The translations under genes and the position numbers were made by a program. The notes under the pieces were generated by a model that saw nothing but the letters and a program-made list of their open reading frames with translations, did no database searches and had not been told where the DNA came from. From positions 12,956,050 to 13,020,049 of the forward strand of contig NC_134026.1 in NCBI RefSeq assembly GCF_964204645.1: DNA of 64,000 bases. Reading direction: 5' to 3'. Source of the DNA: Tubulanus polymorphus (lineage: Eukaryota > Animalia > Nemertea). Positions 9,043 through 64,000 of this stretch are shown one piece after another (the first letter of the stretch is position 1; each line of letters starts with the position of its first letter).

Positions 9043-9056
9043 CTTATTTTAATCCA

Positions 9057-11783: not shown

Positions 11784-11855
11784 TTATTATACATATTTTT
11801 TTACTAAATTGATTTTAGAAGTTATTCATTTATATGTTATTCATGAATACCTATG

Positions 11856-12245
11856 TATTAGATACCCTATTAGATACCCTATTAGATACCCTATTAGATA
11901 CCCTAATACCTGATACCCTATTAGATACCTTAAATACTTAAAACCCCCTTTTTTAAAATAAATATTATTTATACAATTTTCAACCAATTCATTCTTATTT
12001 TTTCAACTAATATATGAATAAGTTTGAAAATAATAAAGGTTATTTATTATTACTGAGGTTTCAATTTCCATATGAATATCAGTTTATAAAATAGGATATT
12101 TTATGTATTAGATTGTATTAGATTGTATTAGATATGTATTAGATTGTTTTAGATATGTATTAGATATGTATTAGATACGTATTAGATACCTTAAATACTT
12201 AAAACCCCCTTTTTTATTTACTATTATTTTATACAATTTTCAACC
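11856..12245. repeat. Two arrays of TATTAGA-core short tandem repeats, each followed by a duplicated ~55-bp unit
   Basis: (TATTAGATACCC)n at ~11856-11930 and (TATTAGATTG/TATTAGATATG)n at ~12105-12190. Both are followed by TTAAATACTTAAAACCCCCTTTTT...TATTATTTTATACAATTTTCAACC. Confidence 0.85.
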
Positions 12246-12252
12246 TTTATTA

Positions 12253-13170: not shown

Positions 13171-13202
13171 TTATTATATATATTTTTATTAAAGTTAAAA
13201 TT

Positions 13203-14446: not shown

Positions 14447-14469
14447 TTATTTAACAATAAAATTAATTA

Positions 14470-15915: not shown

Positions 15916-15929
15916 TTACATAATACAAA

Positions 15930-17318
15930 AATTAAAATTTAAAATATAATATTCCTCCGATTACAATTCCTATACAAGTTATAGCTAATTTAGCATTTTT
16001 CATGGGATTTATTATCATCATTTAGTTTAATTATATCATGTTGAATAATATCAGTTTCTTTATTTTCTGATGTATTGTAATCTTTTATTTTAGAATCATT
16101 ATTTAATTTTATTAGTTTTAGTTTCTGTTGATTGAATGTGTTTTTTATTTTTTTCACTTTCCATTAATTTTGGAGCAGTGATAATCTTTTTATTCATATC
16201 ATTCAATCCAAATGAATTATTTATTGTTGCAGTATTAATTAGATTATTATAACCAATTATATTTCCCATCTTTAGTACTAAATCATTAGAAATAATGAAT
16301 AGATTAGGGCCTATACAATAATTTAATCTAATATGTGATTTATCTAAATAATTTTGATATCTTACAATGTTTTCTGGAATCGATCTATTTTTATCATTAT
16401 GAATTGAATCTTCAAATAATACTTTAAATTGTTTTTCTGTATCGAATGATGTATTCAAATTTCCAATTATCGGTGATCTTGTTTCAACTTGCGCACCTAG
16501 AATACATATCAAATAAGTTCTAATAGATTGATTTATTCTTTCTATACCTGATTTAGTAAAACCTTCACTATTTTCTAAAATAAAATAAACCCAACCATTA
16601 TTGTTTTCTTGTTTTAAATGATCATAAAATTTCGGTAATTTATTGAAATTTAATGTTTCTAAATCCTTTGTTTCTATTTTACCATAACCTAATTTATTAT
16701 TATAGATATTATAAAAACTATTAGATGGTATGGGAAGTGCACAATATTCTGCAATCTTTTTAGGGCAAGGAAGTGATCTTATTGTTCCAATTTTTGTTCT
16801 AAAATCAGAATTATTTATATCTATATTAAATTCATTACAAATTTTATAAAACTTTGATACATTAATATTATTATCTAATTCTTTAAAATATCTAGATCCT
16901 GGTAAAGCGCACTCTAATTCGTTTAATATTATTCTGATTTGAAAGTATGTATGAAATCTAAATAAACTTTGAATTAATTTATATTTAGAATTATTCAAAT
17001 GATCATTCCAACTTTCATTCCACATCCTGTTGTTGCACAATAAACAGCAAAATTTAATTGGTTCTGCCAATACTTCATATTAGATTTTAATAACCATTGT
17101 TTTTCATCTTTCAATTTTTTAAAATTAATTAAATATACATGAAATATATTTTCCATCTTTGCATTAAAATTATTAGTTTCAGTAACATAAATTTCTAAAT
17201 TAGTTAATGAATCTAAAACTTCATTTCTATATGTAATATCTTTATTAAAATCTATTGCTGGAATATTATATTTAATTGATTTATTATATTGGGAAGCTTT
17301 TGGAAAACTATCTACCAT
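15930..17318 (-). pseudogene. Conserved Polinton protein (WQNQLNFAVYCATTGCG family), frameshifted
   Basis: ORFs 16995-17318 and 16099-17070 join. Homologue at ~40770-42070. Probable C-terminal TM anchor near 15950-16000. Confidence 0.7.
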
Positions 17319-17334
17319 TTATATAATTAAAAAA

Positions 17335-17769
17335 TTAATAATTTATTAACTCTTTTAATAATTTATCTTGTTCTTCAACTGTTATATGGCCATTTAAACT
17401 CATTATATAATCTAGTGTATTCTTTAATTTATTAATTTCTTTTATATTAGTTTTAATTTTTTCTTTATTACTTTTTATATTTAATTTTGAACTTATACCG
17501 GTTAAAACACTTGAACTTAATCCTAATACGCCAATTGATATAGCTAAAGGTGTTAATGGACTGAATATTGCTAGAAATGTTATTACAGAACTAATTGTAA
17601 CCGAACCACTTATAATCAAATAATATATAATTTTACTTTTTAGATATTTTTTCTTTTTAACTTTTAAGTCACTTTCAAATTCTAATATTTGTTTTTCTAA
17701 ATATATTTTTAATTTAGTTTTATTTATATCATGAGGAATAATATCAATACTATCAACTTTATCTTCCAT
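17335..17769 (-). CDS. Two-TM coiled-coil membrane protein (possible adintovirus membrane-active protein)
   Basis: 144-aa ORF with a hydrophobic hairpin IIYYLIISGSV...LGLSSSVLTGIS flanked by basic coiled coils. A decayed homologue lies at ~42083-42520. Confidence 0.7.
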   Translation of the reverse strand: MEDKVDSIDIIPHDINKTKLKIYLEKQILEFESDLKVKKKKYLKSKIIYYLIISGSVTISSVITFLAIFSPLTPLAISIGVLGLSSSVLTGISSKLNIKSNKEKIKTNIKEINKLKNTLDYIMSLNGHITVEEQDKLLKELINY

Positions 17770-17788
17770 TTATTTAGAAAAAAAATTA

Positions 17789-18209
17789 CTAATAAGTAAA
17801 TTTATATGCTACAAATATAACAATAACTGTTCCACCTAAAATCCAAATTATTTCATATTTCTGTTGTTCTTTACTTGGGGTATAATAATCTGATAATTTA
17901 GGTTTGTATAGATGTAATTTTTCTTTATTGGTTACCGCGTTATATAAACTCATTGCATCATCGACTGATTGAAAATCTATGTGAAATCTTCTGATCATAT
18001 AATTCTTTATTGATGTAAACCATATAGTTTTGTCTCTTTTCTCTATATTCTTCTGCAGCTTTATTATATTTTTCTAATGCTAAGTTATGTCTTCTTTGTT
18101 CTCCTAATGAACTATTTTTATCAATATGTTTAAATAAATATCCACCACCAGTAAATGCTAAAGCGTTAACAATTGCCGATCCTATAATAGTTATAATTGC
18201 AGAAGCCAT
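17789..18209 (-). pseudogene. Small hydrophobic Polinton protein (MASAIITIIGSAIVNALAF), frameshifted
   Basis: ORFs 17958-18209 and 17789-17998 together equal the single 134-aa ORF at 42561-42965. Confidence 0.8.
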
Positions 18210-18233
18210 TTATTTAGAAAAATAATTACGCAT

Positions 18234-18455
18234 TTATATGGGAGGAATATATTTTTGTTTTTCCAAATAATCAATAGTTAAATTAGATAAAGTAATTGCT
18301 AATGCTAATTTTAAAATATCATTTATATCAAATCTATCAACATTAACACTTCCCATTTTGAATACTTTTTTTAATACCATTGAATAACCAACAGTTCCAA
18401 CTGATAGTAATGCTCCATTATATAATCCAGTTATTATCCACTTATTATCACTCAT
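18234..18455 (-). CDS. Small two-helix hydrophobic Polinton protein
   Basis: 73 aa with TAAATG start; conserved in copy 2 (43023-43211). Confidence 0.75.
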   Translation of the reverse strand: MSDNKWIITGLYNGALLSVGTVGYSMVLKKVFKMGSVNVDRFDINDILKLALAITLSNLTIDYLEKQKYIPPI

Positions 18456-18797
18456 TTATTTATCAAAAAAATTAATATCATCAAAATATTTAGTTATCTT
18501 AGTGATGATTAATTCAACATTTATTTCATTACTAGTTTTATGATTATCATATATTTTGGTTAATATGTTTTTAATATCATCAAAAATTCCATCTTCATTT
18601 AATTCATAATATTCTAAAGGCGATTTAATTAAATCAATTACTTTTTCTATATTATAATTTTCTTTATCAATCATTGATGCATTGTTAAATGATTTACTTT
18701 TTATATCAGTAATTACATCATTTAGTTTAATTCTCATTTCTTTACCATGTTTAAAATCAAACCCAAAACATATACTCGGGCCTACAGTTATATTCAT
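18456..18797 (-). CDS. Polinton hypothetical protein
   Basis: 113 aa; its stop abuts the next start (TAA-ATG). A decayed homologue lies at ~43212-43550. Confidence 0.7.
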   Translation of the reverse strand: MNITVGPSICFGFDFKHGKEMRIKLNDVITDIKSKSFNNASMIDKENYNIEKVIDLIKSPLEYYELNEDGIFDDIKNILTKIYDNHKTSNEINVELIITKITKYFDDINFFDK

Positions 18798-18816
18798 TTA
18801 TATAGTGAAAAAAAAA

Positions 18817-19575
18817 TTACTCTCTACATCTTATAACTAATTCATATATCACAGGAAAGTTATTCAAATCAATTAAATATCCATTATGATTTCTAATTTC
18901 TAATCTAAAATTATTAAAACGAGGAATGCATGGTTTGAAATCACATTCTGTTAAATTATAATTTATTTGCGTTCCAAATTCTTTAACATTCTTCAATGGT
19001 AAAATGTTTAATAAACCAGAATTACAAGTTATATCTTTAGTTGCTTCGAATGTTTTTGTAGGATCGATTAAATTGCAATAAATATAAAAGTGTGTAAAAG
19101 GTATTAAGTTTGGTGTAGCATCAGCATTGCGTATCCTTACATCTGGGGTTATTCCTAAAATTTTAGCTAAAGGTTTTTTAACTAGAAATTGATGTTGATC
19201 TTCATTACCTAATTTTATTCTTATTTTATCGGAGCTATCACTTTTAATCAGTCTTAATCCAAATCCAGCAGATGCACCCATTTTCAACCGAGCTCTTCTA
19301 TTAATTTCCTGCGCTAATGTATCTAAATTATATAATCCTGGTTTAAGATAAAGATGAAACCATTTACTTTTATTTCTATCATGAATTAAAAATACTCTAT
19401 GTTCAATAGTTTTATCCGATACATTGTAAAAAGAATTACATAAACTTATATTAACTAATTTTAAATCAACACAATTCTTAAATTCTCTATCTAATTGTAC
19501 TAGTAAATTATGAGATTTATAATTTGTAAGTCTTCTAGAATCTACAAATATTCTGTATTCTTTTAATTCTACCAT
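18817..19575 (-). CDS. Minor capsid protein (penton, single jelly roll)
   Basis: IFVDSR..NY...L.REFKN...LKLV; NSFYNV; PGLYN; FYIYCNLID; LEIRNHNG.LIDLN..P...EL match the Polinton/virophage penton pattern. Confidence 0.85.
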   Translation of the reverse strand: MVELKEYRIFVDSRRLTNYKSHNLLVQLDREFKNCVDLKLVNISLCNSFYNVSDKTIEHRVFLIHDRNKSKWFHLYLKPGLYNLDTLAQEINRRARLKMGASAGFGLRLIKSDSSDKIRIKLGNEDQHQFLVKKPLAKILGITPDVRIRNADATPNLIPFTHFYIYCNLIDPTKTFEATKDITCNSGLLNILPLKNVKEFGTQINYNLTECDFKPCIPRFNNFRLEIRNHNGYLIDLNNFPVIYELVIRCRE

Positions 19576-19592
19576 TTATTTTACATATTTTC

Positions 19593-19946
19593 TTATTCGA
19601 AATCTATTTCATGGTGCCCTTTTTCATTCTTACCTTTGTATACGAAATAGAAATCTCCAGAACATAATTTTTCTAGATCTTCACTTGATAATCTATGAAA
19701 TCTATCAGGTAAATATGTTCTGGATTTATATGTATTTCCTTTTAATCCTTCATATTCTAAGTGTATAACTAATTTATCTCCATAGTTATTAGTAACTGTA
19801 TCAATATTTGTAATTAGATATTTCTTATGGATTGTTAATTCTGTTAACTTTTTGAATTTATAATCTACAGATTTTACATTGGTAGTATCTTTTATTCTAT
19901 CTAGAAATGATTTGTTTTTCTCACTGTGCGCTTGTTTACTCTCCAT
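19593..19946 (-). CDS. Small beta-rich hypothetical protein (possible OB-fold ssDNA-binding protein)
   Basis: 117 aa, FKKLTEL..KKYLI...YGDKLVI.L...YLPDRF; lies directly downstream of PolB. The fold is inferred. Confidence 0.6.
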   Translation of the reverse strand: MESKQAHSEKNKSFLDRIKDTTNVKSVDYKFKKLTELTIHKKYLITNIDTVTNNYGDKLVIHLEYEGLKGNTYKSRTYLPDRFHRLSSEDLEKLCSGDFYFVYKGKNEKGHHEIDFE

Positions 19947-19975
19947 TTTAATAACATATTTTTATTAAAATTTGA

Positions 19976-22900
19976 TTAACACATTAGAATTCTTTTCATT
20001 ATCTCGTTCTCTTTTGTTTCTTCACTTTTAAATTTTAAGTATTCATCTAAATTACAACCATAAGCAACTGTATGAATTCCATCATCCAGAATATATCTTT
20101 TATCATCAAATGGGTTTGGACTTATCTTTTCAATTTCTTGAATAAATGTTTCATGATCTTCAGATCTTAAACATCTCATTTTATGTTTTCTAACTTCTTC
20201 ATTGAATATACAATTGATGTAATCTTTGAAATGAATATTCTTTTCTACTACACTTTTGGTTATTCCTTTTAACTTTTTAGCTTCATGTTCATTCATGTTT
20301 CATTCTGTAAAACTTCAGTTAATTCAAATACTCCATAAGGTTGTGGTTTCATCATTGCCCAACCATACAAATTATTTGCATCTATATATAATAACTTATA
20401 TCCAGGGTTATCATTTACATTGAAATATCTATCACCTAATACACCCGAAACTCCTCCTCTTATAGATTTTTCGAATAATAGTAATTGATCTATATTTGTT
20501 AACAAATCCATTTTTATATCTGTAAATTTTAATCCACAATCCCATGTTAATCCTGGTGATGAATAACAATGACATGGATCAATATTTAAATATTTTAGGT
20601 TTACATCTCTAAACCTTTCGAATATATCAGTTAATAATAATACATCTGATTTTAGATATAAATCTACTAATTGCCCATGATTTTCTATTTTGAAATGATT
20701 CCAAATATTCAATGTTCTATTATATACTTCATCTTTAACATATTCATTTTTTTAATTCATCATAGAATTGTTCTTTTAATAATTCAGTTATGTTAAAATC
20801 ATTATGATTTTTATAGAAAGAATATGGAATTGCTCCTTTATATCTCATTAATTGAAAATCATCATTATTTGGGTAGTGTTGCTTTAATATTTTTAATTCA
20901 TCATCAACTAATGATTTTGATAAGTTATCTAATGAACTATTTAAAAATCTATATGAATCTATAAATCTTAGACATCCAAATTGGAATGATATATAATTCT
21001 CAGATGTTTTAGCTAACATTCTAAATTTATAAGTTGGTATTTTATCTTTTGATCTATTTGAATTTAATCTTTCTATTTCATTATTGATTTCTTCTATTTT
21101 ATGGCATAACTGTTTGATGAATAAATGTGCATCATATCCTGATAGATTATGAAATATAACTGGTACAAAGTTAATTTTCTTAGCTTGTAAATTACAATTC
21201 TCATGCGCTGCGCCTGTAAACTTTCCATTCAAATGATCATGGTCTCTTACTTTTTTATCTTTATAATTAAATATCTTTTCACAATAATAACATTTATCTG
21301 CAAACTCAAATGCTTCTTTATCTTCTTCTGTCATTATAATTTCTATATTTGTATTCAATAATTTACTAAATCTTATTTCATATTCAATTAATAAGTCACA
21401 AAAATGATTGATAACATTTTCATTTCTATAATGATAATATTCACTTTCAATTAGTTCTGGATAATCAGATTTAATATATAACCCGAAAGCTGCAGCTGAT
21501 TGATGAATCTTTTTAATTGTATTTGTTATTGGTGGTTCATCTGAAAAATCATTTTCATTAGAATTTAATTTCTTTCTTTTATAATATATTTCTTTTCTAT
21601 CTTGATCAGTTAGTTCTTTATTTAATGATTCAAAATCTCCATATATTACAAATGGTACTTTATTTTTGTAATCATATTTTTTGAATTCTAATATTTTATC
21701 TTTTTCATTTGGTAAAACTAATTAACAATAATCATGATTTTCACATAATTGTTTATGATTTAATAATGTACTTTCATTACTGAATTTATGTAAACATTTT
21801 CTACAAAGATATATTTTATTATGGTGATCACTTTCTGTTCTAAAGAATAAATCTATTTGTTTAAAACTCATTCGCTGGGGATATATTTCTTCATTATCCA
21901 TTCAATCTGGGGGAATTAATTTTTTCTTCATATTTCAATGTAAAGGTCGATACATTTCCAGTGTAGAGACCCTCCTAAAACCAATATCTGTTATGAAGCT
22001 AATAGGTATCTCTACCAGAAAATGTTAGTTATAAAAAGTTTGGACCTACGGGTGCAAGGTAGACCCCAAAACCTGAGGTCAAGTTGAGGTCACGCAACCA
22101 AAAAAGTCGCCGACAACCAGTACATACTGCCTGTGTGTGTAGAGTATATACAATCGCTTGTGAGCTCTCTATAGAGCATGCTGACTCAGTGTAAGCAGCC
22201 AGACTCGACTAGTTTGCCATCTATCGGGGGTAATAGGAACCGTCACTTGAGGCGTGGCCACGACCCAGTTTCTTTGTTTACGCTGTCACGTGAGGCGTGA
22301 CGACGCCAACTGAATTCCACATATAATGATTCTTATAATATAGTATATCTATAACATCATTTGAATCATAATCTTTTGATAGGTATAAAGGTTCTAATGT
22401 ATAATATTTTATATTGTTACCTTTGTTAAATCAAATACATTTATCTTTATATTATTATCTCTTTCTATTTTTGGGATGTTTTTAATTCTAACAGGATACT
22501 TATCTATCTTATAATTATTTTCAAATGGTTTATAATGAGTTAATCTACAAATATTATAAGTTGCAGGATGTAAGCAACTTATTATAGCCCATAGAAAACA
22601 TTTATCATCTTCATTTTGTACATTTATAACAGCATTAGTTTTAAATGGTAGTTTAATATAACTCGATGCTTCAATATCTGGTTCTTTATAATATGATACA
22701 TTATTTTCATCAATTGGTTTTGATTTAGTTAACTTATTATATTTTGTGTTATAAACATGTAAAGTCATAAATATTATTTCATCAAATATTAAACCAGATC
22801 CTTCAAAATATTTCTCTTCTATTTTAGTTTTTACTTCATTATAACATTTATCTAATTTATCATCTATATGTTGTTTAGATAAAATATGTTGTGAATGAGA

Positions 22901-23516
22901 ATTTATATTATATATTGGTTTATCTTCAGATTTTATAAACTTTACTTTAGAAGATATACTAATTTTAGGATATTCAACATCAGTTATTATTTTTATTATT
23001 TCTTTCATATTTTCTAAATGTTTTTTGTTTTCTTCTAATGTTTTTCCTTTATGAAATTTAAACTCATAGCTGCTGGGCGAATATCACTTTTAAATGCTTC
23101 GGTTATCTCTATATCTTTTTTATTATCTAATGAATTAATATATTTTCTTACATCTTCCATGTATGATCTTTTATTGTTTAATTTATTTTTTATGCTTTTA
23201 ATTGTCTTCTGTTTCTTATCATTATCTTTATCAGAATAATCTTCACCTAAAATATCATTATTCTTATTTCTTATTTACTTTTAGATTTTAAATGTTCATT
23301 ATAATATCTTTTATCACTGAATGATTGATTACATGTATCACATTTATATGTTTCTTTTTCATTCTTTAATTCTTCTAATTTAGTTTCTAATATATCATCT
23401 TTATATTCTAGTTTCAATTTATTCTCTAAATGTGTTTTAGTTTTATTGTGTCTTGATTTTTGGGATTTATCTATATTGATATTACATGTTGGACAGTAGT
23501 ACTTCTTTGCTTCCAT
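19976..23516 (-). pseudogene. polB: Protein-primed DNA polymerase B, disrupted
   Basis: N-terminal C2H2 fingers (23271-23516), NEDDKCFLWAI, ExoI YGDFES, EndoVII-like CYYC...RDHDH..G..H..CN, ExoII FHNLSGYD, ExoIII YLKSDV, Pol motif A YIDANNLYG and C-terminal KGI...FDDKRY. Motifs B and C are missing (deleted); frameshifts and an insertion are also present. Confidence 0.93.
21863..22314. mobile_element. ~450-bp unclassified insertion in PolB
   Basis: A GC-richer block interrupts sequence that is contiguous in the second PolB copy (46381-46410). Confidence 0.7.
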
Positions 23517-23662
23517 TTTAATACTAAATTCTTTATTAAAATTGATTTTAGAAGTTCAATGATTTATATCATGTATTATTTCAATCACACTTTACTAACA
23601 CTTTTAATGTTTAAAATCTAACTCACACAAATATGAATATTGAAATAATGTTGTAAATATAT

Positions 23663-24041
23663 ACTTTTATATTGAATAATCTGTCAATTTATATGTTATT
23701 CATTTATATGATTATTTTAAGAGTAATAGGGATAATAGGCTTTCAGGTTAAAGGTTGAATGGTCGAGTTCATTAATAACAAATATTAAAAGTAATTTAAA
23801 ACTATAATATATTTTCATAACCGTGTGTATTTCAGTTGAATAATAGAATAATTATTATTATCAAAATATATTTGATTATATGCTTTTTAAATTATTGATA
23901 TCTTAGAATAAATATTTAGTTATAATATAAAATACACACGGTTATGAAAATATATTATAGTTTTAAATTACTTTTAATGTTTTGTTTTTAATGAACTCGA
24001 CCGTTCGACCTTTGATTTGAAAGCCTATTATCCCTATTACT
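23663..24041 (-). repeat. Right TIR of Polinton 1, containing an internal hairpin at 23722-24041
   Basis: Reverse complement of 6935-7311. Confidence 0.95.
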
Positions 24042-45465: not shown

Positions 45466-45603
45466 AGTAATTGGGAATAAGTTGGTTCAGGTTAAAGGGT
45501 TGAGAGGTCGAGTGAGTAGAAAAATAAATTCTCGCACGCTCGAATTTATTTTTCTACTCACTCGACTCAACCTTTGACCTGAACCAACACATTCCCAATT
45601 ACT
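45466..45603. repeat. Polinton-family terminal hairpin (AGT...ACT)
   Basis: AGTAATTGGGAAT...TTCAGGTTAAAGG...AAATAAATTCTCGCACGCTCGAATTTATTT...ATTCCCAATTACT. The loop is nearly the same as in the hairpins at 53636 and 60610. Confidence 0.88.
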
Positions 45604-48545
45604 ATTATACCAAATTTTCCCGATAATTGTTTTATAAATAAATGAGTATCATATCCTCATAAATAATGAAATAATATTGGTACGAAATTAACCTTTTTAG
45701 CTTGTAAATTAGAATCTTTATGAGCAGCTCCACGATATTCTGGATCTAAATGATAATGGTCTCTTACTTTATTATCAAATGAATAAAATGGCTTTTCACA
45801 AAACCAACAATAAGTTGCATAATTAAAATCAATTTCATCTATCGTCATTATTATGGTTTTTATTTTTGTTTAATAATTGTGCAAAATCACTTTCTTATTC
45901 AATTATCTTATTACAAAATCCATTTGCTACATCTTCACCTCTGAAAGAAATATATTTACTTTCATATAATTCAGGGTAATTTGATTTTATATAAACTCCA
46001 TAAGCAGCTGCTCTTTGATGAACTTTTTTAATTGTATTTATAATTGGATCTTGAATTGTATCTTCATTTAATTAATTTTCTTTATCCATTGATTTTGAAA
46101 TTTGATTTTTGTTGTATATTTCTTTTCTATCTTGATCAGTTAAATCTTTATTCAATGATTCAAAATCTCCATATATTACAAATGGAACCATGTTTTTAGA
46201 TTTATAAATAGTAAATTTCAATTTATACTCTTTTTCTGTTGGCATTATTAATTTGCAAAAATCTTTATAATCACATAACTCTTCATGTTTTAGTAACGCA
46301 TTTTCTGTCATAAATTTAGATAAACATTTTCAATATAGATAAATTTTATTATGGTGATCACTTTCTGTTCTGAAAAATAAATATATTTGTTTTAACCACA
46401 TATAATGTTCATTTTCATCTTTTTTCATAGTATAATAAATCTATAACATTTGCGTCATAATCTTTTGTTAAATTTAAAGCTTCTACTGTATAATCTTTAA
46501 TATTTTCACCTTTTGTCTTTGGTAATTGCATTAATTCGAATACATTTATTTTTTTTAAACTATTAACTTTATTGATCGATTTTATATAATGTTTCATATT
46601 TCCGGTAATCTGATATTCTAAAACTATGTGTAATTTCTTCTGTTGGGTATAAACAACTAATAGACGACCATAGAAAACATTTGTTATCTTTATTTTGAAT
46701 ATTTATTACTGCTTTTGTCGTAAATGGTAATTTAATGTAAGACGATGCTTTAATATCCGTTGCTCTTGTAAAGTTTGAATTATTTGTAAAAATTTTATTA
46801 CTTATTGATTTTTATCATGGGCTTGCATGCTTGCAAGCCCATATTGCTATTACACGTATTGATAACTTGCTTGGGGAGTCGATAACTTTCGTTAGAAACG
46901 TTCTTGGGCTCTGATATTTACACACATTTAATGCAGTTATAAAATCTAGGTTCCTGTCGTATATTGGCTATATCGGTTGTCGTTTTCATTGTTTTATAAT
47001 TTTGTTTAATCGTTTTTGTTATTTCAGCAGCGCATACCAACCTTGGTTGAGCATGCGTGATCAGTCTTGAAAATTGGTATTCATGCGCGGCATAGTGCTG
47101 CCGACAATTCAATTCATTCTTTATTGACACAATAAAACATTTACTTTCACGTTTTAAAAAAATTCTTTTGATTTTCTTTTACTTTCTTTCGGGGCTTGCG
47201 TTAGCGGCCATTTGACAAATCTTTGTATGAACATTTATATTTTTCAGTTTAGATATCTAAAACTTAAAATCCGCTTTTCTGTAAAATAAATTCTGAATTG
47301 AATAGAAGACTGGTTCCCTGTCTATTCAAAGAGCCAGGGGGCGGTAGTCTATGGTGGCAATAAACCTTATGAGTAAACTTTATCGGATGATCGTAGTGGA
47401 TTGTCGTTTGAAGGAGATGTAACTTATTCTTGCTTAATGTCTTTCTTAATGTTTTTTCTTTCAGCTGTAAATTTTTCTATGCAAAATCATTTCAACACAA
47501 TCCGATACGTAATCTAGCAATTATCAACATGATGATAAATTCCGTTAAGACACTACAATACTCAAATAACAACTATCCAAAAGCTTGCACTAACTTGGTC
47601 CACGTCTACAATAAAACCATTCCGATATTCCCAGTCCCCGTGTATAACATTTCATGTACGATGTACGACAAAACCGATCTCTTAGCTCTTTAAGTAATCA
47701 GTTCAAAGTACGATTAATTCTACTACAGAAATACAAAACCACCAAGCAAGCTTTCGGTACAACCATGTCAGCAAGCCCATTTTTAGAATTTCTGTCTTGT
47801 TCCTATTTGTATTGTAAATATTTAAATCTAGAAATAAAATTTTATTCAATGTTTAATGTTTAACCAGAACCTTTTTTAATATCTTTCTTCAATATAGCTT
47901 TTAGATTCATTATATATGTTTTCTAATTTCTCTTTTATTTGTGTTTTTGAAATTATTTCTTCGGAATGTGTTTGAATATTACTCTCCATTTTTTCTTCTG
48001 ACTTTATATAACTTACTTTTCCAGAAATACGAATTTTTGGATATTCAACATCAGTTAAGAAATCCAATATCATTTCAAAAAATTTACTTTAATCTTCTAC
48101 TCTTGTGCCTTTAAAAAATTTAAATATAATAGCTGCAGGACCAATTTTTCTACGTAATGTTTCTAAAATTTCAATTCTATCTTTTATTTTAAGTGAATCG
48201 ATATAAGTTCAAACATTTTCCATCTAAGGTTTTTTTGAAATACATTTAGTTTCTTTAATAGATATTTTTACTTGTTGAGATTAATCATCAAAATATTCTG
48301 TTCCTAAAATATTTTTACTTAACTTTTGTTGATGTTTTTATGATTCAAGATGTCTTTTATAATTCCTTTTACTTATAAATTCATTACAAACATCACATTT
48401 AATTTCATATTTTTTCATATTTTCTAATTGTTCTTTTTTTTCATTTGGAATTTTCTGGTGTCTCAAAACCTATAACATTTATTTTATGAATAACAGTTTT
48501 TTTGTCGAGATTTTTGAGATTTATCAATGTATTGTTCACAATATG
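45604..48545 (-). pseudogene. polB: pPolB N-terminal half, second copy, truncated after ExoII
   Basis: DVEYPKI.IS.KV, KCFLWS, VPFVIYGDFES, CWFC..RDHYH...GAAH and GYDTHLFIKQL, ending at the hairpin. Confidence 0.88.
46809..47801 (+). mobile_element. HINE-like (Helentron-associated) non-autonomous element inserted in the PolB remnant
   Basis: T-rich 5' flank, subterminal IR ATGGGCTTGC with a local palindrome, GCAAGCCCAT at 47771-47780, and CTTGTT end. Confidence 0.65.
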
Positions 48546-48599
48546 TACAATAATATTGATTTTTATTTTTATTATTGATTTTTTTATGTTCACTGTCTC

Positions 48600-49600
48600 C
48601 CATTTATTAGGGGAAAAATTACGAGTGGTGATGGGTGATGTGCCGACCTCTCGACATCTGGTATAAAAGCCTATATTTCCAATTACTGAAAGACAACGAT
48701 AAATCGATTGATTCAGATATTCCTTGGAAATTAGACCCTAGTCATTTGTCACGATGGCTACCAGTTAAAGAAGGTGGAATAGATACTACAGGAAAATTCT
48801 CATTCATTCGTATTTATGCGTGGTCCTTGCGATTCATTAGAATCTGTCGATCACCAAAAAAGTCACGTATTATCATCCAAAGAATTGAAAGAAGCCGAAC
48901 TGACAATTTTAAAATTCGATCGGCGAAAACGTTATCCCGACGAAATAGCAGCTCTGAAAAAGAAAAACAATGTTCTTCTTATAGCAGTAAACTTGTTGCG
49001 TTCATTCCGTTCTTGGGTGAAAAAGATGTATAGCGTTCGCGAACTCGATTAGAAAATAGTCCTGAGTTACCGAGTGAAGCGAAATTTCCGATTATCTTTG
49101 CGAAATCTATTCCCGTCGCGGGACCCTTGATACTTCAGGAGCACGATGATACCGACCATAGCGTCAGACCAGCTCATATTCATAATTCGTTGAGACAGAA
49201 GTATTTGATCTTACAAGGATTAACTCTCGTGAAGAATATAATTCGCGCTGTTCACTTAAAAACAACCGATAGTTTAGATACCGATTCGTTACTCTCCAGA
49301 TTCGTTCGTTTTGCAGCAAGACAAGGTTGGCCAAAACGATGTTTATCAGACAACGGAGGTTGTTTTGTATCTGGAGAGTCAGAATTGCGAGAACTTACCG
49401 ATTTGTTAAGTCGATCTAGACCAGGAAAAATTGCGAACAATTAAGCGAATAATGGAGTTCAGTGGGTTTGGAATCTTCCCGCCAGCCCGCATTTTGGAGG
49501 CGTGTTTGAAGTCATGATAAAAGCAGCTAAACGTTCGATTAAAGCGATGATAAAAAATAGCGATCTTAATGATGAACAATTCCGAACGAGTAATTGGACG
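48600..49600 (+). pseudogene. Degenerate BEL/Pao pol fragment (integrase region)
   Basis: RAVHLKTTDSLDTDS...RFAARQGWP...SDNGG.F, followed by W.WN.PASPHFGGVFE..IK..KR; internal deletions. Confidence 0.8.
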
Positions 49601-50744: not shown

Positions 50745-53700
50745 ATGAAGTCATTAATAGTTTGTCTATGTCTGGTCGCCAGTATTTTTGCCAAGGAACT
50801 GTTCTCTCAAAGAGAGTTAGCTGTCCTTCGAAATCTTGATAGAAGTGATTTGCCGAGGTACATTAAGACAGCGTTACGACGAATCCGTAGACAAGTACAA
50901 GGGTACGTAGGTGTTCCAACTTCAAATTTAAGTGAACTCCTGACAAGGGGATGGAAGATCAACAGTTTTTTTTTCTGTGAAATAATCTTGGTTCTACAAC
51001 TAGAAGTGGAGATAAATGGCATGGAAATACTGTCAAAATTGAAATAGCATTTTGACGCGTCAATCGACGCGTCAAACGACGCGTCAATCTACGCATCAAA
51101 TTCAGGGCATTGCTAGGGCAATTTAGGGCATTGCTTGAAAAATCTTTTTAATTCGTGACTTCAGGTAAGTTCCACAAGTTTATATTGTATTTTATCTTTC
51201 TTCAGGAATTATTTTGTAGTCAAATAAGACCAAAGATATACATTTGGTTACGGTCCGTGTCCAAAATTTTGTAGGGTACAGGTAGGCGCGGCAGGGAAAC
51301 TATTTAATATTTTCAAAAAAATATGTTTCACAATATGAAAAAAATATTCAAATAAGGCCATACCAAAATAATTGTCTGTTTGCCGTAACAACGAATGAAC
51401 TTTTCAGGATGAGTCGGAAGGTAGGTAGAAGGTAGGTAGGTTTTTTGCAAAATTTTTGGGCAAAAAAAAGAAACAAATTTACCACCTTTTTCACATGGAA
51501 ACAATATCGTAGAAATCATCTACGTTGTGCACGGGAATTTTGTCTAATAGCGTAGATTTCGAGAATTATTCCAAAATTATAACTTCGTCCAGAGCGGCAT
51601 CTCTGTGTTAAAAATGAAACAGTACATTGAATATGAGCGAGCGTTTACGTTACCAGCTTTAATATAGTCACTATGAGAATGAATGGCAGCTTATTGGAAC
51701 ACTGCCAGTTTCCTGGAAAACTTAAATTAGGCCACATGTCAAGGCATGTTTTCACACAATGCACACTTGAATTCAAACATACGTAGCACATACGTCGGCA
51801 GTGTGTCGGTCGGTCGGCCGTTTTTATCAAAAATAAAGTTTATTTCAATGAATCCCAGAAAAAAGTTTTCACTCGGTACCTTTGAAGTCGGGTCGGTCGG
51901 TCCTCGTTACCTCGTTGTCTCAAGGTCTCGTTGTATACACGTACTTAATACATGCATGCGAACGCCGTAGACACAAAGTCCTAATGGCTTTTTGGGCACC
52001 CGAGAGGACTCTGAAAAAAAATAAATCATTTTTTTAGCATATACAATGACTAGAACAAAAGCACCGGCAATATTTCACCACTGTATGTGTAACTTTCCTA
52101 AGCCAGGTTGTAAAGATGTCATCTTAGATGTCAAAAATAGGGCTGCTTAGGACCCCTTGAATGCACCCATGATACAGCACTTTGGAGAGTGATCTTGACA
52201 CACCTTTTTTATCAGTGGGTTATTACGCAATCGGCAGCCATCCTAGTATCTTCAGTCCTCGTTCATAGAAGGAAAACGGGTTTGTGGAGGATATCAACAG
52301 GTTTAACACATAATTACGTATGTTATTCGATAATTTGTATCTATCGTATGACACATCCCAATCGAATTGGGATTACCCGGTGTTGTATTATCTCACCAAA
52401 GGAGGGAAATTTTGAATAAAATACAATTTACCTTTTTTCATTGGTACCTATCCATATAAACAACAAAAGAAAAATTTCTTTTTATAGTGCAACTGGGCAC
52501 ATATTCATACGAATCATGCATTCAAGCTTTGTCAATTACTCATAGGAAGCCAAATTTTGAAAAGGCCCTTGATTAAATTGTTGTTCGCGAAAATCTGAAC
52601 GCAGAAATGTTGGAAAAAGCCTCTATGGTCGGCTTAGCCGCTGTCATGTGAACCCGCGGTATGTCTACTATATTACTTTCGCGTTTTATTTGGTTAAAGT
52701 GATCAATTGCGCGATCGGGACGAATAGTTATAAAATACGACGAAAATAACTTCGAATCAAATTCAATTTTAAACCGCATTCATATCAATTAGACAGGAAA
52801 AAACTCTAGTCTGTGGTATTCGTTCCTGCCATCTCCCCGTTGCGACTTGTAAAAACACGATTGAACTGTGTTAATCCACGGGGCTCGTATCAGAGTTGCA
52901 GTGTAAAAATGATAATCTGTTAATTCAATGTCTATAGTATATATAAAATAACAAGGGGCTAACGACGCTCACAAACTACTCAGCTTCAGTCACTTACTGT
53001 TCCTTTATTTCTCATCCAATTTCGATAATTTCGGGCATGATATGAAAGCTAATAGCTTCCTGCTTCTGACGAAATTAATCCCTTTAACTTCCAATGAATA
53101 GTTCGTGAACAAATATAGAATGTTTTGTGTATTTGAAGCTCACGATCATCAAAATCGGTGAAAGACTTCGCGTCGAACTGAACGTTTTAAATTTCGAAAT
53201 CGGCAAAAACCGGCGTCATAGCATTTTCGGTCCAGGCAATTTCGGCCCCAATTTCGCGTTCAAAGACGTATAACTATTCTTTGGAAATTAATGGGATTAG
53301 TTTCCTTAGAAGCAGGAAGCTATTAGCTTTCACATCATGCCCGGATTATTGAAATTAGATGAGAAATAACGAAATAGTAAGTGACTGAAGTTGAGTAGTT
53401 TCTGAGCGTTGTTAGTCCCCTTGTTGAGACGAGGAGATACACAATATCCGTGTAAGATGATAACGAGAGAAATTCCACGATAAATCCAGCCATGACCAAA
53501 AACCTGAAAAGAAGAGTATATATATTTGCGCAACTTTTTGGCTAAAGACTATTAGCCATCATCAGGCGTACTGAGAATAGGAGAATACTACACGATAATT
53601 ATACAAGACCAAACTGAGTGAGTGATTACAATGTTAGTAATAGGGAATATAGGGGTTCAGATCAAAGGTCGTAAGGTCGAAAAATAAATTCTCGCACACT

Positions 53701-56700
53701 CGAATTTATCTTTCGACCATCCAACCTTTGATCTGAACCCCTATATTCCCTATTACTTAAAGTTTAAATGTGTTAAATTTTTGATTTTAACATAAAAAAG
53801 TACGAGTAATTAACAAGTGTAAACTTGCGTCGAGAAAACAGTGAATATTTATATTTGTATGTGTTAAATTCTTATTTTAACATAAAAGTAACGAGTAATA
53901 AAAAATTTGATATTAAAATGGAAGCAAATAAGTACTACTGCCCGACATGTAAAATCAATATAGATAAATCTCAAAAATCAAGACACAATAAAACTAAATC
54001 TCACTTAGAAAATAAATTAAAATTAGAATATAAAGATGAAATATTAGAAAATAAATTAGAAGAATTAAAGAATGAAAAAGAAATATGTAAATGTGATAAG
54101 TACTACTGTCCAACATGTAAAATAAATATAGATTAACCTCAAAAATCAAGACATGATAAAACTAAATCTAACTTAGAAAATAAATTAAAGTTAGAATATA
54201 AAGATGAAATTCTAGTTCTATTTGAATTCTAGTTTTTCTATCTTCTTCATTCTATCTTTTTCATTTTCAAACTTAACTTGAATTATACAGTTTATCATTC
54301 AATTCATGAATATATTTATGAGTTTTTAAACTCTTTTCATTTTTATACCTTTTATTACATATTTCCAGCATTTAATATTATTAATTCGATCTGATAGATA
54401 ATTTATATTTTCTTTTAATTCTGTATATTTAATTTTACAGCTATCATAGAATTCTAACATCTGTTTCAATGAGTAAACTGAGAAAGAAAATAAACCTGAA
54501 ATCATAATTAATTTAATATTCTGTTGATTTCTGTAAATAAGATGTAATATTTCTAATACCTTACTTTCACTCATTTTTGTAGTTAAAATATATAAATTAA
54601 ATTAGATTAAAAGATGCTGTTTATATCCTCTAATTCTTTTAAACCATTAACTTTTTATGATTATTTTTATTTCCATTTAACTTCTTTAATTTCTTGCTCA
54701 ATTTAATATTTTCATTCATTAGATCCTTACTAATATTTTCATAATAGAAATATAATGCAGCCAATATTAACCCTCCTGCTATAAGATAATGCTTCAAATC
54801 ACTTTTCCCAATTGGAATGCTGAAATCTTCCATTTAATTAAGAGAAAAATTAAACAGTTTATAAAATATTAGATAATTAGTGTTGAATTATTATTTTTGA
54901 GTTATGATATTTTGATTTAAGATGGTGTGATTTATTGCTTCGAGTATAATATTTTCCACAATTACATAACACCTTTTCATTAGGTTCATATTTAGGTGTT
55001 TCGATTATATCGTCTAAGTTACATTGAATTCCAACATCTTTATATGATTTTTCATTTGGAATGTCAGGGTTAAATCTGTTTTCTTCTACTCTGAAAAACA
55101 TTACATAGCATTCTCTGAAAGGACAATAACGTAAGTGTAGAAATAATGATTTATCTTAATTTTCATTATTAAAAAGTGATTGCATTTCATCTGTAATTAT
55201 TAAATGTTTAACTGTTTCATCAAATCTTGTGAATTTTGGAATAATTGTATTGAATAAGATTTTATCTTTATCATTCGATAACTCTATTATTAGATAATGA
55301 TTTTTAAACATTGATTCGGTAATATTTTTCACTTGAAAACGGAAACGTCCAGTTTTAATCAAATCTTTAATAGGAATGAAATTTTTAATTGTAAAATATT
55401 TTTCTAATTCATTTAAATCGATATCTTTAAACTGTAGTATCTGTTCACTCATTTATTAGTCATTTTTTTTATTTAAATGGATATTTTCTTCAGTACTCGT
55501 TACTTTTTATATGGTGGACAGTAGTACTTATCACATTTATATATTTCTTTTTCATTCTTTAATTCTTCTAATTTATTTTCTAATATTTCATCTTTATATT
55601 CTAACTTTAATTTATTTTCTAAGTGAGATTTAGTTTTATTGTGTCTTGATTTTTGAGATTTATCTATATTGATTTTACATGTCGGACAGTAGTACTTATT
55701 TGCTTCCATTTTAATATCAAATTTTTTATTAAAATTGTTATTTTCTTCAACTCGTGAATTCCTCGTTACTTTTATGTTAAAATAAAAATTTAACACATAC
55801 AAATATAAATATTCACTGTTTTCTCGACGCAAGTTTACACTTGTTAATTACTCGTACTTTTTATGTTAAAATCAAAAATTTAACACATTTAAACTTAAAG
55901 TAATAGGGAATATAGGGGTTCAGATCAAAGGTTGGATGGTCGAAAGATAAATTCGAGTGTGCGAGAATTTATTTTTCGACCTTACGACCTTTGATCTGAA
56001 CCCCTATATTCCCTATTACTAATGTTGAAGGGGAATAGAATCAAGTAAGGACATAACAGCTGGAAAACAATAGTAAATAGTAAAGAAAGCAAAGGCAAAC
56101 TAGGGGCAATATAGATTAAAGAATTTTAAAAACAAAAGACACAAACTTAAGTGATTAAAACGTAAGGACAAGCTAAGGGGTAATCAGATGAAAACAAAGA
56201 GAAGGCACATGAAAGGCTTTGATCTATTACACTTCAACATTTTAATCCCTCACTCTGTTTCTATTGTTTTGGTATTTTCTAATAGTCTTTAGCCGAAACT
56301 TTGCCCAAAAGTTTATACTCTTCCATTCAAGTTTCTCGTTTTGGCTGAATTTATCGTATGATTTCTCGCGTTAGCCCCCCTTGTTATTTTATATATGCTA
56401 TAGACATGGGATAAACAGATTACCAGATCAACAGATTGGATTAATAGATTATATTACCTACAACTCTGATACGAGCCCCTGTGTGTAAATCACACTGAGC
56501 GAAAAGTGTATTTTGGCAAATGTAACCCACAGATTGCATTGCACCATGGTGGATCATTCGTTGTAATTATCTGGATTGGATTCCATAGCCTCGCGATTTG
56601 TATCTTAACTTGCCACAATGTGTTATTCTTTATTATTGGAAATTTGCAATAGCTCGTGTTTGGCCTGTATGGAATAAGGAGGTGGTGTTTCATTTTTATT

Positions 56701-60600: not shown

Positions 60601-61039
60601 AGGCCGGTTAGTAACAGGGATAATAGGGGTTCAAGCCAATGGTCGAAAGGTCAAAAAATAAATTCTCGCACACGAATTTATTTTTCGACCTTTCAACCTG
60701 TGAACTGAACCCCTATTATCCCTATTACTCTTGAAATATTCATATAAAGGAACATTATTTAAATGAATTTCATATATTTTAAAATAAATTTCATGTTTTA
60801 AAAGTGAGAGTAAAATGTTAGCATAATAAACTAGAAAAATAAGATCAAATATAGATTTCGAATGATAAAAAATCAATTTTTAACATAAAAAGTGTGAGTA
60901 AAGTGTGAGTGAAATAATTCATATTTAAAACAGTGAATATTTATATTTATATGCGTTAAATTCTTATTTTCAATATAAAAATAACGAGTAATTAACAAGT
61001 TGAAGAAAATATCAATTTTAATAAAAAAATGACTAATAA

Positions 61040-61621
61040 ATGAATGAACAGATACTACAGTTCAAAGATATCTTTTTAATTGAATTAGAAAAATATTTTA
61101 CAATTAAAAATTTTATTCCTATTAAAGATTTCATTAAAACTGGACGTTTTTGTTTTCAAGTGAAAAATATTACTGAATTAATGTTTAGAAATAATTATCT
61201 AATAATAGAGTTATCGAATGATAAAGATAAAATCTTATTCAATACAATAACTCCAAAATTAACAACATTTGATGAAATAGATCAACATTTAATAATTACA
61301 GATGAAATACAATCACTTTTTGATAATGAAAATTCCCATAAATCTTTATTTCTACACTTACGTTATTGCCCTTTCAGAGAATGCTATGTAATGTTTGTCA
61401 AAGTAGAAGAAGAAAGATTTACCCCTGCCATTCCAAATGAAAAATCATTCAAAGATGTTGGAATTCAATGTAACTTAGATAATGAAATTGTTACACCTAA
61501 AGAGAAATATGAACCTAATGAAAAAGCGTTATGTAATTGTGGAAAATATTATACTCGAAGCAATAAACCACACCATCTTAAATCAAAATATAATAACTCA
61601 AAAATAATAATTCAACTCTAA
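61040..61621 (+). CDS. Cargo gene A: 193 aa, unknown N-domain, DVGIQC motif, C-terminal CxCG..H..(H) zinc finger
   Basis: Intact ORF with TAAATG start; three copies in the window. Confidence 0.8.
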   Translation: MNEQILQFKDIFLIELEKYFTIKNFIPIKDFIKTGRFCFQVKNITELMFRNNYLIIELSNDKDKILFNTITPKLTTFDEIDQHLIITDEIQSLFDNENSHKSLFLHLRYCPFRECYVMFVKVEEERFTPAIPNEKSFKDVGIQCNLDNEIVTPKEKYEPNEKALCNCGKYYTRSNKPHHLKSKYNNSKIIIQL

Positions 61622-61672
61622 ATATTCAAAATAAGATATTTCAAATTACTTTTAATTCTTTCTCTCAAATAA

Positions 61673-61876
61673 ATGGATGGTTTCAGCATTCCAATTGGGA
61701 AAAGTGATTTAAAACATTATTTAGTTGCTGGAGGTTTAATATTAGCTGCACTTTACTTTTACTATGAAAATATCGGTAAGGATCTAATGAATAAAAATAT
61801 AAAATTGAGTAAAAAGTTAAAAAAGAAATTCAATGAAAACAATAATCGAAATAAAAAAGTTATTGAATCAGATTAG
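61673..61876 (+). CDS. Cargo gene B: single-TM peptide
   Basis: TAAATG start; conserved in three copies. Confidence 0.75.
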   Translation: MDGFSIPIGKSDLKHYLVAGGLILAALYFYYENIGKDLMNKNIKLSKKLKKKFNENNNRNKKVIESD

Positions 61877-61896
61877 TGAATTAATTAAATAATCAA

Positions 61897-62199
61897 ATGA
61901 GTGAAAATATATTAAGTTTATTACATCTAATATATAAAAATCAACAGAATATTAAATTAATCATTATGCTTACAGGATTAGTTTCATTTTCAATTCATAG
62001 TATAAAACAGATGTTAGAATTTTGTGATTCTTGTAAAATTAATTATACAGAATTGAAAGATAACATAAATTATATTTCAGATAGAATTAATAATATTAAG
62101 TGTTGTGATATATGCAATAAAAAATATAAAAATAAAAAGAGTTTAAAAACTCATAGATATATTCATGAATTAGATGAGAAATTACATAATTCAAATTAA
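61897..62199 (+). CDS. Cargo gene C: hydrophobic segment, coiled coil and C2H2 zinc finger
   Basis: CDICNKKYKNKKSLKTHRYIH. Confidence 0.78.
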   Translation: MSENILSLLHLIYKNQQNIKLIIMLTGLVSFSIHSIKQMLEFCDSCKINYTELKDNINYISDRINNIKCCDICNKKYKNKKSLKTHRYIHELDEKLHNSN

Positions 62200-63240
62200 G
62201 TTTGATAATGAAAAAGATTAATTTCTATTTACATATTGATGGACGAATTGGACGAATGGACGAGTGGACGAGGGTACGAGACGGGGGTCTTATATTCAAA
62301 TAAACCCCTATGTCTTCACAGATTTATCATATGCATATTTGTAACTAATATATTTTATATTTTCAGCTAATATAATTTATATTTTATTAAAATGATATTT
62401 AAATATCGTATAAAATTGATAAAATCACTTAAAATCAAACTCGTACTGTTTTTTTAATAAAAACATATGTAAATCATATATTATTACACTCGTACCATTC
62501 GTCCAATTCGTCCACTCGTTCACTCATACACATTCAAAATCCTCTCATTTTCCAAATTATGATTTTATTTTATAAATTTATATTCATATGATATTAGTGG
62601 TATCTTTACGCAGCACTAGAATAATACGAGTGATACTAAGTTAGTTGGTTTATTGTTTTTCTCGTCAAATGTAAAGTCATTTAGTATTAAAAAGAATTAA
62701 TAAAAAAACATTAGAAAAACAATAGGTGTCTTTAACAACACTAGCTTATTCAATTGTATTGTTTTTCTAGTTGAATCTATTCAAAATATCATTTAACCCA
62801 GTGAGCAAAAAGAAACAATAACTAGTCTTATTTTAAAGATAAGCATCATATTCTTTACGCACCACTAGAATATGATATTTATCTAGTGCTGCGTAAAGAA
62901 TATGATATTGAGCGTAATAATATATGATTTACATATGTTTTTATTTAAAAAACAGTACGTGTTTGATTTTTAGTTATGTTATCAATTTTATACTATATTA
63001 AAATATTAATTTAATAGAATATAAATTATATTAGCTGAATATATAAAATATATTAGTTAAAAATATGCATATGATAAATCTGTGAAGACATGGGGGTTTA
63101 TTTGAATATAAGACCCCCCTCTCGTACCCACGTCCACTCGTCCGTTCGTCCAATTCGTCCAATCGTCCATCAATGTGTAAATAGAAATTAATCTTTTTCA
63201 TTATCAAACTTAATTTGAATTATGTAATTTCCCATTTAAT

Positions 63241-63486
63241 TCATGAATATATCTTATGAGTTTTTAAACTCTTTTCATTTTTATATTTTTTATTGCATAT
63301 ATCACAACACTTAAATATGTGATCTTTTAATTCTGTATATTTAATTTTACAAGAATCATAAAATTCTAACATCTGTTTTATACTATAAATTGAAAATGAA
63401 ACTAATCCTGAAAGCATAATGATTGATTTAATATTCTGTTGATTTTTGTATATTAGTTGTAGTAAATTTAATATATTTTCACTCAT
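63241..63486 (-). CDS. Cargo gene C, inverted arm (internal deletion)
   Basis: Homologue of 61897-62199. Confidence 0.7.
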   Translation of the reverse strand: MSENILNLLQLIYKNQQNIKSIIMLSGLVSFSIYSIKQMLEFYDSCKIKYTELKDHIFKCCDICNKKYKNEKSLKTHKIYS

Positions 63487-63490
63487 TTAA

Positions 63491-63709
63491 TTATTTAATT
63501 AATTCACTAATCTGATTCAATAACTTTTTTATTTCGATGATTGTTTCCATTTTTGATTTCTTTAACTTTTTACTCAATTTTATATTTTCATTCATTAGAT
63601 CCTTACTGATATTTTCATTGTAAAAGTTAAGTGCAGCTAATATTAAACCTCCAGCAACTAAATAATGTTTTAAATCACTTTTCCCAATTGGAATGCTGAA
63701 ACCATCCAT
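63491..63709 (-). CDS. Cargo gene B, inverted arm
   Basis: Homologue of 61673-61876 with a C-terminal frameshift. Confidence 0.7.
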   Translation of the reverse strand: MDGFSIPIGKSDLKHYLVAGGLILAALNFYNENISKDLMNENIKLSKKLKKSKMETIIEIKKLLNQISELIK

Positions 63710-63752
63710 TTAAAAAAATCAAAAGTAATTTGAAATATCTTATTTTGAATAT

Positions 63753-64000
63753 TTAGAGTTCAATTATTATTTTTGAGTTATGATATTTTGATTTAAGATG
63801 GTGTGATTGATTGCTTCGAGGATAATATTTTCCACAATTACATAACGCTTTTTCATTAGGTTCATATTTCTCTTTAGGTGTAACAATTTCATTATCTAAG
63901 TTACATTGAATTCCAACATCTTTGAATGATTTTTCATTTGGAATGTCAGGGGTAAAAACATTACATAGCATTCTCTGAAAGGGCAATAACGTAAGTGCAG
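63753..64000 (-). pseudogene. Cargo gene A 3' part, inverted arm (frameshifting deletion; 5' end outside window)
   Basis: DVGIQCNL...CNCGKYY..SHHLKSKYH; deletion after CYVMF. Confidence 0.75.

What the first reader, a model, noticed from the sequence alone, without database searches (positions are those of the whole stretch)
53636..56020. Gene-carrying satellite (mini-Polinton) with its own three-gene cargo
Seen: a 2.4-kb element with AGT...ACT hairpin termini whose outer bases match the 17-kb Polinton (AGTAATAGGGA..ATAGG..TTCA.ATCAAAGGTCG), and a perfect 6-bp TSD. It has no integrase, polymerase core or capsid. It carries three genes (A: 193-aa Zn-finger protein; B: TM peptide; C: TM plus C2H2) absent from both large elements here but present three times in this window. 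Established: 6-bp TSDs and AGT ends are the Polinton integrase signature. Inference: this is not a simple deletion derivative but a satellite or transpoviron-like parasite of a Polinton virus, mobilised in trans and keeping its own accessory genes.
Basis: partly seen in the sequence, partly recalled or inferred. Interest (0 to 1): 0.88.

Follow-up and report, generated by a model that had tools for sequence, protein, structure and literature searches.

The report
Hairpin-capped defective Polinton with orphan genes
A real 2.4-kb mobile element carries the ends of a virus-like Polinton transposon, the start of its polymerase gene on both arms and three orphan genes (two broken here); it is most likely a cut-down copy moved by a full-length Polinton rather than a new satellite parasite, though that is not excluded.

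Summary
The element is real: 53636-56020, perfect AATGTT duplication, 490-520-bp inverted repeats 98.6% alike, 122-bp terminal hairpins. Three corrections. (1) Both arms carry the first 60 codons of the Polinton polymerase gene (91% identical to the 17-kb Polinton), so it is built from Polinton ends. (2) Here A has a stop and C a frameshift; the intact 193-aa A lies in a second element (60610 onward). (3) 'Three copies' are two elements; the second is a fold-back dimer. A-B-C look like real Polinton genes: A has the polymerase's leader, starts and codon bias match, and B and C were under purifying selection (pN/pS 0.11, 0.31; A 0.71, not significant). They have no homologues found. A DNA run puts the cassette at roughly tens to a hundred-odd copies, with many one-off rearrangements. 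Changes since insertion are neutral. Best reading (0.6): defective copy-back or deletion derivatives of an unseen Polinton family with A-B-C beside one end, moved in trans. A true gene-keeping satellite (0.25) stays open, because no genome was held to test linkage to core genes. Not a transpoviron.

The parts
53630..53635 (.). left copy of 6-bp target-site duplication AATGTT
53636..54122 (+). left terminal inverted repeat (487 bp)
   Evidence: 7 mismatches in 486 aligned bases and 2 gaps against the right repeat
53636..53757 (.). 122-bp terminal fold-back palindrome, AGT...ACT at both of its own ends
   Evidence: z -17.7
53918..54210 (+). 5' 60 codons of Polinton pPolB (N-terminal zinc finger) followed by a partial tandem duplicate with a stop
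   Evidence: 91% nt to 23336-23538; 88% aa; duplicate 54096-54210 92%
54211..54253 (.). 43-bp junction between the pPolB fragment and the 3' flank of C
54273..54574 (-). gene C, frameshifted near codon 70; hydrophobic stretch plus C2H2-like finger
54639..54833 (-). gene B, 64-aa open frame, weakly hydrophobic peptide with basic tail
54877..55452 (-). gene A, in-frame stop at codon 99; C-terminal CxC...H finger-like motif
55453..55504 (-). leader of A, a second copy of the leader type in front of pPolB
55505..56020 (-). right terminal inverted repeat (516 bp) with pPolB 5' 60 codons (55709-55530) and hairpin 55899-56020
56021..56026 (.). right copy of target-site duplication AATGTT
60610..64000 (.). 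second mini element: fold-back dimer; hairpin 60610-60729, leader, open A 61040-61621, B 61673-61876, C 61897-62199, centre hairpin 62845-62906, broken mirror copies to the window end (right end expected near 64740)
6935..24041 (.). 17-kb Polinton (ATPase, rve integrase, capsid-like, pPolB; several frames broken), 380-bp inverted repeats with 318-bp hairpins, ACCGTA duplication; lacks A-B-C
45466..48687 (.). third short Polinton derivative with AGTAATTGG ends, 138-bp hairpin and only part of pPolB

Best explanation
It is a non-autonomous Polinton (Maverick) derivative, with both arms made of the polymerase-side Polinton end, likely produced by copy-back or internal deletion from an unseen Polinton family in which A-B-C likely sat next to one end, and likely copied and inserted by a full-length helper. 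Shown: Polinton ends, 6-bp duplication, pPolB 5' fragment in both arms, shared leader, past purifying selection on B and C, many related copies, present decay. Inferred: during strand-displacement replication the polymerase switches template or skips the interior, giving a short molecule with an origin and an integrase site at each end; helper pPolB copies it and helper integrase inserts it; A-B-C ride along because they lie next to the end. The 60610 element is the fold-back version of the same event, turned at the hairpin 62845-62906. A-B-C are inferred to be small accessory (probably early, regulatory or host-interaction) genes of the parent virus.
For: pPolB start in both arms, 91% nt to the 17-kb Polinton whose own 380-bp repeat stops short of it. 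Leader of A 90% alike over 102 nt to the pPolB leader. TAAATG/TAAAATG at 11 of 14 hand-picked gene starts of the 17-kb element and 6 of 8 cassette starts, against 41 of 409 background ATGs; GC3 0.12-0.22 as in Polinton genes (0.13-0.20), unlike 0.33-0.36 of neighbouring elements. B 0.11 and C 0.31 pN/pS, the same order as dN/dS 0.17-0.28 in 5 of 6 Polinton genes. The two minis share the cassette but not their architecture. In run X1, 11 of the 15 joints shown lie at 40-64x, near single-copy depth, and depth falls about fourfold after C. A third short derivative in the window keeps only pPolB. Polymerase-lacking mobile Polintons and gene-holding 2-kb repeats are reported.
Against: No full-length Polinton with A-B-C was seen: none in the window, no genome held, no related loci in viral or metagenome contigs. 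Both elements that carry the cassette are short. Neutral change after insertion is expected under the satellite reading too, and the breaks fit decay after insertion (two or three of three genes broken in 49% of simulations). The 3 coding indels among the 12 indel rows shown are all in frame and shared at high depth, so subfamilies kept the frames. The copy-back step is inferred from anatomy only.
Confidence: 0.6

Rival explanations
1. A true satellite lineage: short hairpin-capped replicons that never had core genes beside A-B-C, use Polinton promoters, polymerase and integrase, and need A-B-C for their own spread; the chromosomal copies are its fossils.
For: Two differently built short elements keep the whole cassette in order; it is absent from the full-length neighbour; B and C diverged deeply under selection (pS 0.56 and 0.42); summed depth median 6100x against 35-47x for single-copy contigs; both minis have 120-122-bp hairpins against 318 bp in the 17-kb element.
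Against: pPolB 5' end in both arms; no shared architecture or shared 3' boundary; the short hairpin type also caps a pPolB-only element; A shows no significant constraint (0.71, 95% 0.38-1.57).
Confidence: 0.25
2. A-B-C is a swappable end module: a gene block tied to the terminal leader that moves between Polinton ends by recombination in the leader, sometimes displacing pPolB; the minis are by-products.
For: A and pPolB sit behind the same leader; here A follows a second leader copy right after the cut pPolB; leader duplications and deletions are the commonest joints in X1; A is far less diverged than B and C (pS 0.10 against 0.42-0.56), which points to recombination; mobile end modules were proposed for PLVs.
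Against: No recombinase, helicase or nuclease in the cassette; no case seen in two different full-length backbones.
Confidence: 0.1
3. A-B-C are captured host gene pieces (Pack-MULE-like), or the structure is an assembly artefact.
For: No viral homologue found.
Against: Intronless, 22% GC against 38% host flank, Polinton start motif and leader; clean duplication; arms differ by 1.4%; contigs of runs X1-X3 cover the cassette.
Confidence: 0.05

Closest known systems
Polinton/Maverick elements (PMC8097293, passages read)
   Same: terminal inverted repeats, AGT...ACT-type ends, 6-bp duplication, pPolB-derived sequence, intronless genes; most copies defective
   Different: 2.4 kb, no intact core gene; ends AGTAAT rather than (AGT)2; each repeat opens with a 122-bp palindrome
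Non-autonomous Polintons: Polinton-1N1_DR (name seen in PMC9341505; that N means non-autonomous is recalled from Repbase usage) and polB-lacking mobile polintons of Pieris (bioRxiv 10.1101/2025.02.07.637071, passages)
   Same: Polinton ends without a full replication set, still inserted; genes inside long terminal repeats
   Different: those keep structural genes or are not described in the passages I saw; here all core genes are gone and three orphan genes remain
Transpovirons (PMC5499653, passages)
   Same: small, linear layout with terminal inverted repeats, no capsid, zinc-binding small protein, helper-dependent
   Different: about 7 kb, defined by an SF1 helicase-pDNAP fusion and by carriage in mimivirus particles; none of that here
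Palindrome-ended virophages and PLVs of Halocafeteria (bioRxiv 10.64898/2026.07.28.741278, passages)
   Same: palindromes inside the terminal repeats next to the target duplication; hairpin priming proposed
   Different: there 52 nt and mostly with non-pPolB replication genes, in a protist; here 120-318 nt in pPolB-encoding Polintons of what looks like an animal
Copy-back and snap-back defective viral genomes (search listing and abstracts only); AAV and adenovirus snap-back genomes recalled
   Same: two copies of one genome end, interior lost, helper needed
   Different: listed cases are RNA viruses; these are DNA and were fixed in a chromosome by an integrase

Membership tests
Polinton/Maverick (autonomous) | terminal inverted repeats with AG/AGT...CT/ACT ends | tested here: met
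Polinton/Maverick (autonomous) | 6-bp target-site duplication | tested here: met
   AATGTT
Polinton/Maverick (autonomous) | encodes pPolB and rve integrase (and capsid module) | tested here: not met
   only 60 codons of pPolB in each arm; no other core gene
Non-autonomous Polinton derivative | ends homologous to an autonomous Polinton of the same genome | tested here: met
   38/45 outer bases; 91% over the pPolB 5' part
Non-autonomous Polinton derivative | same junctions at several loci with different duplications (amplified as such) | tested here: inconclusive
   cassette multi-copy but contigs too short to count whole elements; no genome
Transpoviron | SF1 helicase fused to inactivated pDNAP | tested here: not met
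   no long frame and no helicase match in the element; definition
Transpoviron | free linear DNA carried in giant-virus particles | not testable with these tools
   only assembled contigs were served; no match in IMG/VR
Satellite (helper-dependent, own genes under selection) | depends on a helper for replication or integration | tested here: met
   inferred from lack of core genes plus integrase-type duplication
Satellite (helper-dependent, own genes under selection) | genes not derived from the helper genome | tested here: inconclusive
   absent from the window's Polintons but arms are helper-derived and other Polinton families could not be searched
Satellite (helper-dependent, own genes under selection) | purifying selection while in the short form | tested here: inconclusive
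   deep branch constrained for B and C; recent branches neutral; form of the element on the deep branch unknown

The most novel reading that the evidence does not exclude
A-B-C marks a genuine satellite of an animal Polinton virus: a family of about a hundred hairpin-capped mini-replicons that replicate as fold-back dimers, hijack the Polinton early leader, polymerase and integrase, and have kept three genes of their own under selection, the first gene-coding parasite of a Polinton.
Probability: 0.25. Interest if true: 0.78.

Novelty: new variant of a known kind. Interest (0 to 1): 0.42.

Why it matters
How Polintons replicate has been modelled but, to my knowledge, never shown. Integrated one-ended and fold-back derivatives are fossils of replication intermediates: they mark the minimal cis signals (hairpin, leader) and suggest template switching and trans-mobilisation. 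If the cassette proves never linked to core genes, this is a gene-coding satellite of a Polinton, for which my nine literature searches (listings read, not all hits) showed no description. If it is linked, it is an ordinary defective copy with three new orphan accessory genes.

Tried and rejected
Whole-genome search: no genome held. Homologues of A: none at E 0.001 among 71 candidates of 106-338 aa; 2 hits among 1.84 billion representatives, both only to the C-terminal finger motif, unnamed or 'hypothetical' singletons; none in viral or metagenome contigs. B and C: no candidate in the word-indexed search at near lengths; not run through the more sensitive search. Pfam and PHROGs: nothing for A; only sub-threshold hits for B and C. 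AlphaFold of A without alignment: pLDDT 31.6, unusable, so no fold search. End patterns: 0 and 5 hits in IMG/VR, the 5 without nucleotide similarity to the window; 0 in metagenomes. Polinton pPolB and ATPase pieces found no related viral loci. Rfam: none. Expression: no RNA holder listed; X2 and X5 show spliced joints elsewhere, but contigs cannot give levels, so nothing is concluded. Loose ends did not show what follows C in most copies (6 of 262 rows shown). No exact empty-site joint among 15 of 165 joints shown. The short leader pattern alone was not above chance (7 of 100 shuffles). Kapitonov and Jurka 2006 and Krupovic and Koonin 2015 were not held; supplements were not read, and Repbase entries on non-autonomous Polintons could bear on novelty. 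Rejected: transpoviron, host-gene capture, artefact.
Full report
Observation. The element runs from 53636 to 56020, begins AGT, ends ACT and is flanked by AATGTT on both sides (chance about 3.5e-4). Its inverted repeats are 487 and 516 bp, with 7 mismatches and 2 gaps, and each opens with a 122-bp palindrome (z -17.7, 0 of 200 shuffles). The outer 45 bases match the 17-kb Polinton at 38 positions. That element (6935-24041) has an ACCGTA duplication, a packaging ATPase, an rve integrase and weak capsid and polymerase matches. Six-base duplications and AGT-type ends are the reported Maverick marks (PMC8097293, passages). So the element is real and was inserted by a Polinton-type integrase (inference from established knowledge).

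About 40% of the element is terminal repeat, and each repeat contains 60 codons that are 91% identical in DNA to 23336-23549 of the 17-kb element. That frame is the zinc-finger start of the polymerase gene: it continues, across frame breaks, into polymerase sequence, and in the relative at 47700-48560 the second finger and the downstream polymerase blocks lie in one frame. The 17-kb element's own repeat is 380 bp and stops short of it. So both arms of the mini come from the polymerase side of a Polinton. One loose end of 8 contigs at 55529 reads, by eye, like the 17-kb continuation, so most genomic copies of this fragment go on into polymerase and not into A.

The cargo. In the focal element A has a stop at codon 99, C a frameshift near codon 70, and B is open at 64 aa with an altered tail. 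The 193-aa A is in a second element starting at 60610, an inverted dimer whose arms differ by 4-6% and whose centre is a 62-bp hairpin with a direct-repeat copy at 62600; its right end lies beyond the window, so its duplication was not checked. A, B, C have no significant match in the large elements and no homologue beyond A's terminal finger motif. The membrane calls are borderline; the fold of A failed. They look like Polinton genes: the leader of A is 90% alike over 102 nt to the polymerase leader; 6 of 8 cassette starts and 11 of 14 hand-picked starts of the 17-kb element read TAAATG or TAAAATG against 41 of 409 background ATGs; GC3 matches.

Selection. Between the two minis, over cleanly aligned codons, pN/pS is 0.11 for B (48 codons, 95% 0.04-0.23), 0.31 for C (68 codons, 0.16-0.58) and 0.71 for A (190 codons, 0.38-1.57, p 0.25). 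Five of 6 Polinton genes compared between the large elements give dN/dS 0.17-0.28; the sixth, badly aligned, 0.89. Since the dimer's arms parted, changes are neutral on both (14 of 17 and 12 of 15 non-silent; neutral share 0.81). Of the 40 difference rows shown out of 211, 23 fall in coding sequence and 21 are non-silent private changes of the 'intact' copy. Against my reading: such decay is expected after insertion under either hypothesis; at this element's age two or three broken genes arise in 49% of simulations; and the 3 coding indels among 12 rows shown (of 32) are in frame and shared.

Other copies. No genome is held. Four of 6 listed runs were laid, one of them again. In X1, contigs identical to unique flanks have depth 36-42; summed depth over A-B-C has a median of 6100, over the hairpin loop and leader 38000-56000, and behind C a median of 1500. 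The tool warns that this is no copy number, and overlapping short contigs inflate it; I read it only as tens to a hundred-odd cassettes and several times more ends. Eleven of 15 joints shown (of 19) are at 40-64x: one-off deletions and inversions. What follows C in most copies could not be read.

Mechanism. Best supported (0.6): defective derivatives of a Polinton family that had A-B-C beside one end. Template switching or deletion during polymerase-driven strand displacement would leave a short molecule with two ends; helper polymerase and integrase would copy and insert it. The focal element fits either copy-back or a plain internal deletion from a parent with a lengthened repeat; the second fits fold-back at an internal hairpin. 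The parent was not seen. Rival (0.25): a satellite lineage for which A-B-C matter. Rival (0.1): a swappable end module, as proposed for PLVs (PMC11296320, passages).

Comparison. It fails membership of autonomous Polintons and of transpovirons (PMC5499653, passages) and works like a non-autonomous Polinton. Polymerase-lacking mobile Polintons and gene-bearing repeats are reported (bioRxiv 10.1101/2025.02.07.637071, passages); a Polinton-1N1 family is named in zebrafish (PMC9341505, one passage); terminal palindromes are reported in protist virophages and PLVs (bioRxiv 10.64898/2026.07.28.741278, passages). Passages of PMC3014272, PMC6431247, PMC4028283, PMC12220804 and bioRxiv 10.1101/2024.01.15.575659 added nothing on minis. 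Nine searches listed no paper on gene-coding satellites or fold-back derivatives of Polintons; I read listings only, subscription papers and Repbase are not covered. Unchecked notes of this scan describe fold-back mini-Polintons in a sea urchin and an annelid: a lead that the form recurs, not evidence.

Verdict. Real element; new variant of a known kind; interest 0.42. The satellite reading is open at about 0.25 and can be settled by one search of the source assembly.

Noticed in passing
window 45466-48687: Separate short Polinton derivative with AGTAATTGG ends, a 138-bp hairpin on the left only and part of pPolB (66-72% to the 17-kb element); no target duplication seen.
   Followed up: partly
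window 6935-7252, 23722-24041, 45466-45603, 53636-53757, 60610-60729: Polinton ends here open with fold-back palindromes of 120 to 318 bp with a conserved outer stem and variable interior; each palindrome has AGT...ACT at both of its own ends. Summed depth of the short hairpin loop and leader in X1 is 38000-56000x, six to nine times the cassette.
   Followed up: partly
window 7343-23516: 11 of 14 gene starts of the 17-kb Polinton read TAAATG or TAAAATG (poxvirus late-promoter-like, recalled), against 10% of background ATGs.
   Followed up: partly
window 62240-62520: Internal 280-bp inverted-repeat unit with GGACGAA repeats behind gene C; two X1 contigs join C to it in the opposite orientation.
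   Followed up: no
window 11193-11783: HNH-like gene in the 17-kb Polinton behind the same leader type as pPolB; tblastx match (E 3e-13) to IMG/VR locus L001.
   Followed up: no
window 56703-56856, 57801-57919, 58147-58273: Spliced host transcript (GT..AG joints in X2 and X5) between the two mini elements.
   Followed up: no
window 53272-53555 and 56279-56452: The element sits inside a host repeat with inverted arms; other copies of that repeat join across the site.
   Followed up: no
window 25192-31256, 32818-35610, 48638-49600: BEL/Pao-like LTR retrotransposon, PIF1-helicase (Helitron-like) element and a second LTR fragment, named by eye from the translations; the window is a dense transposon cluster.
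   Followed up: no
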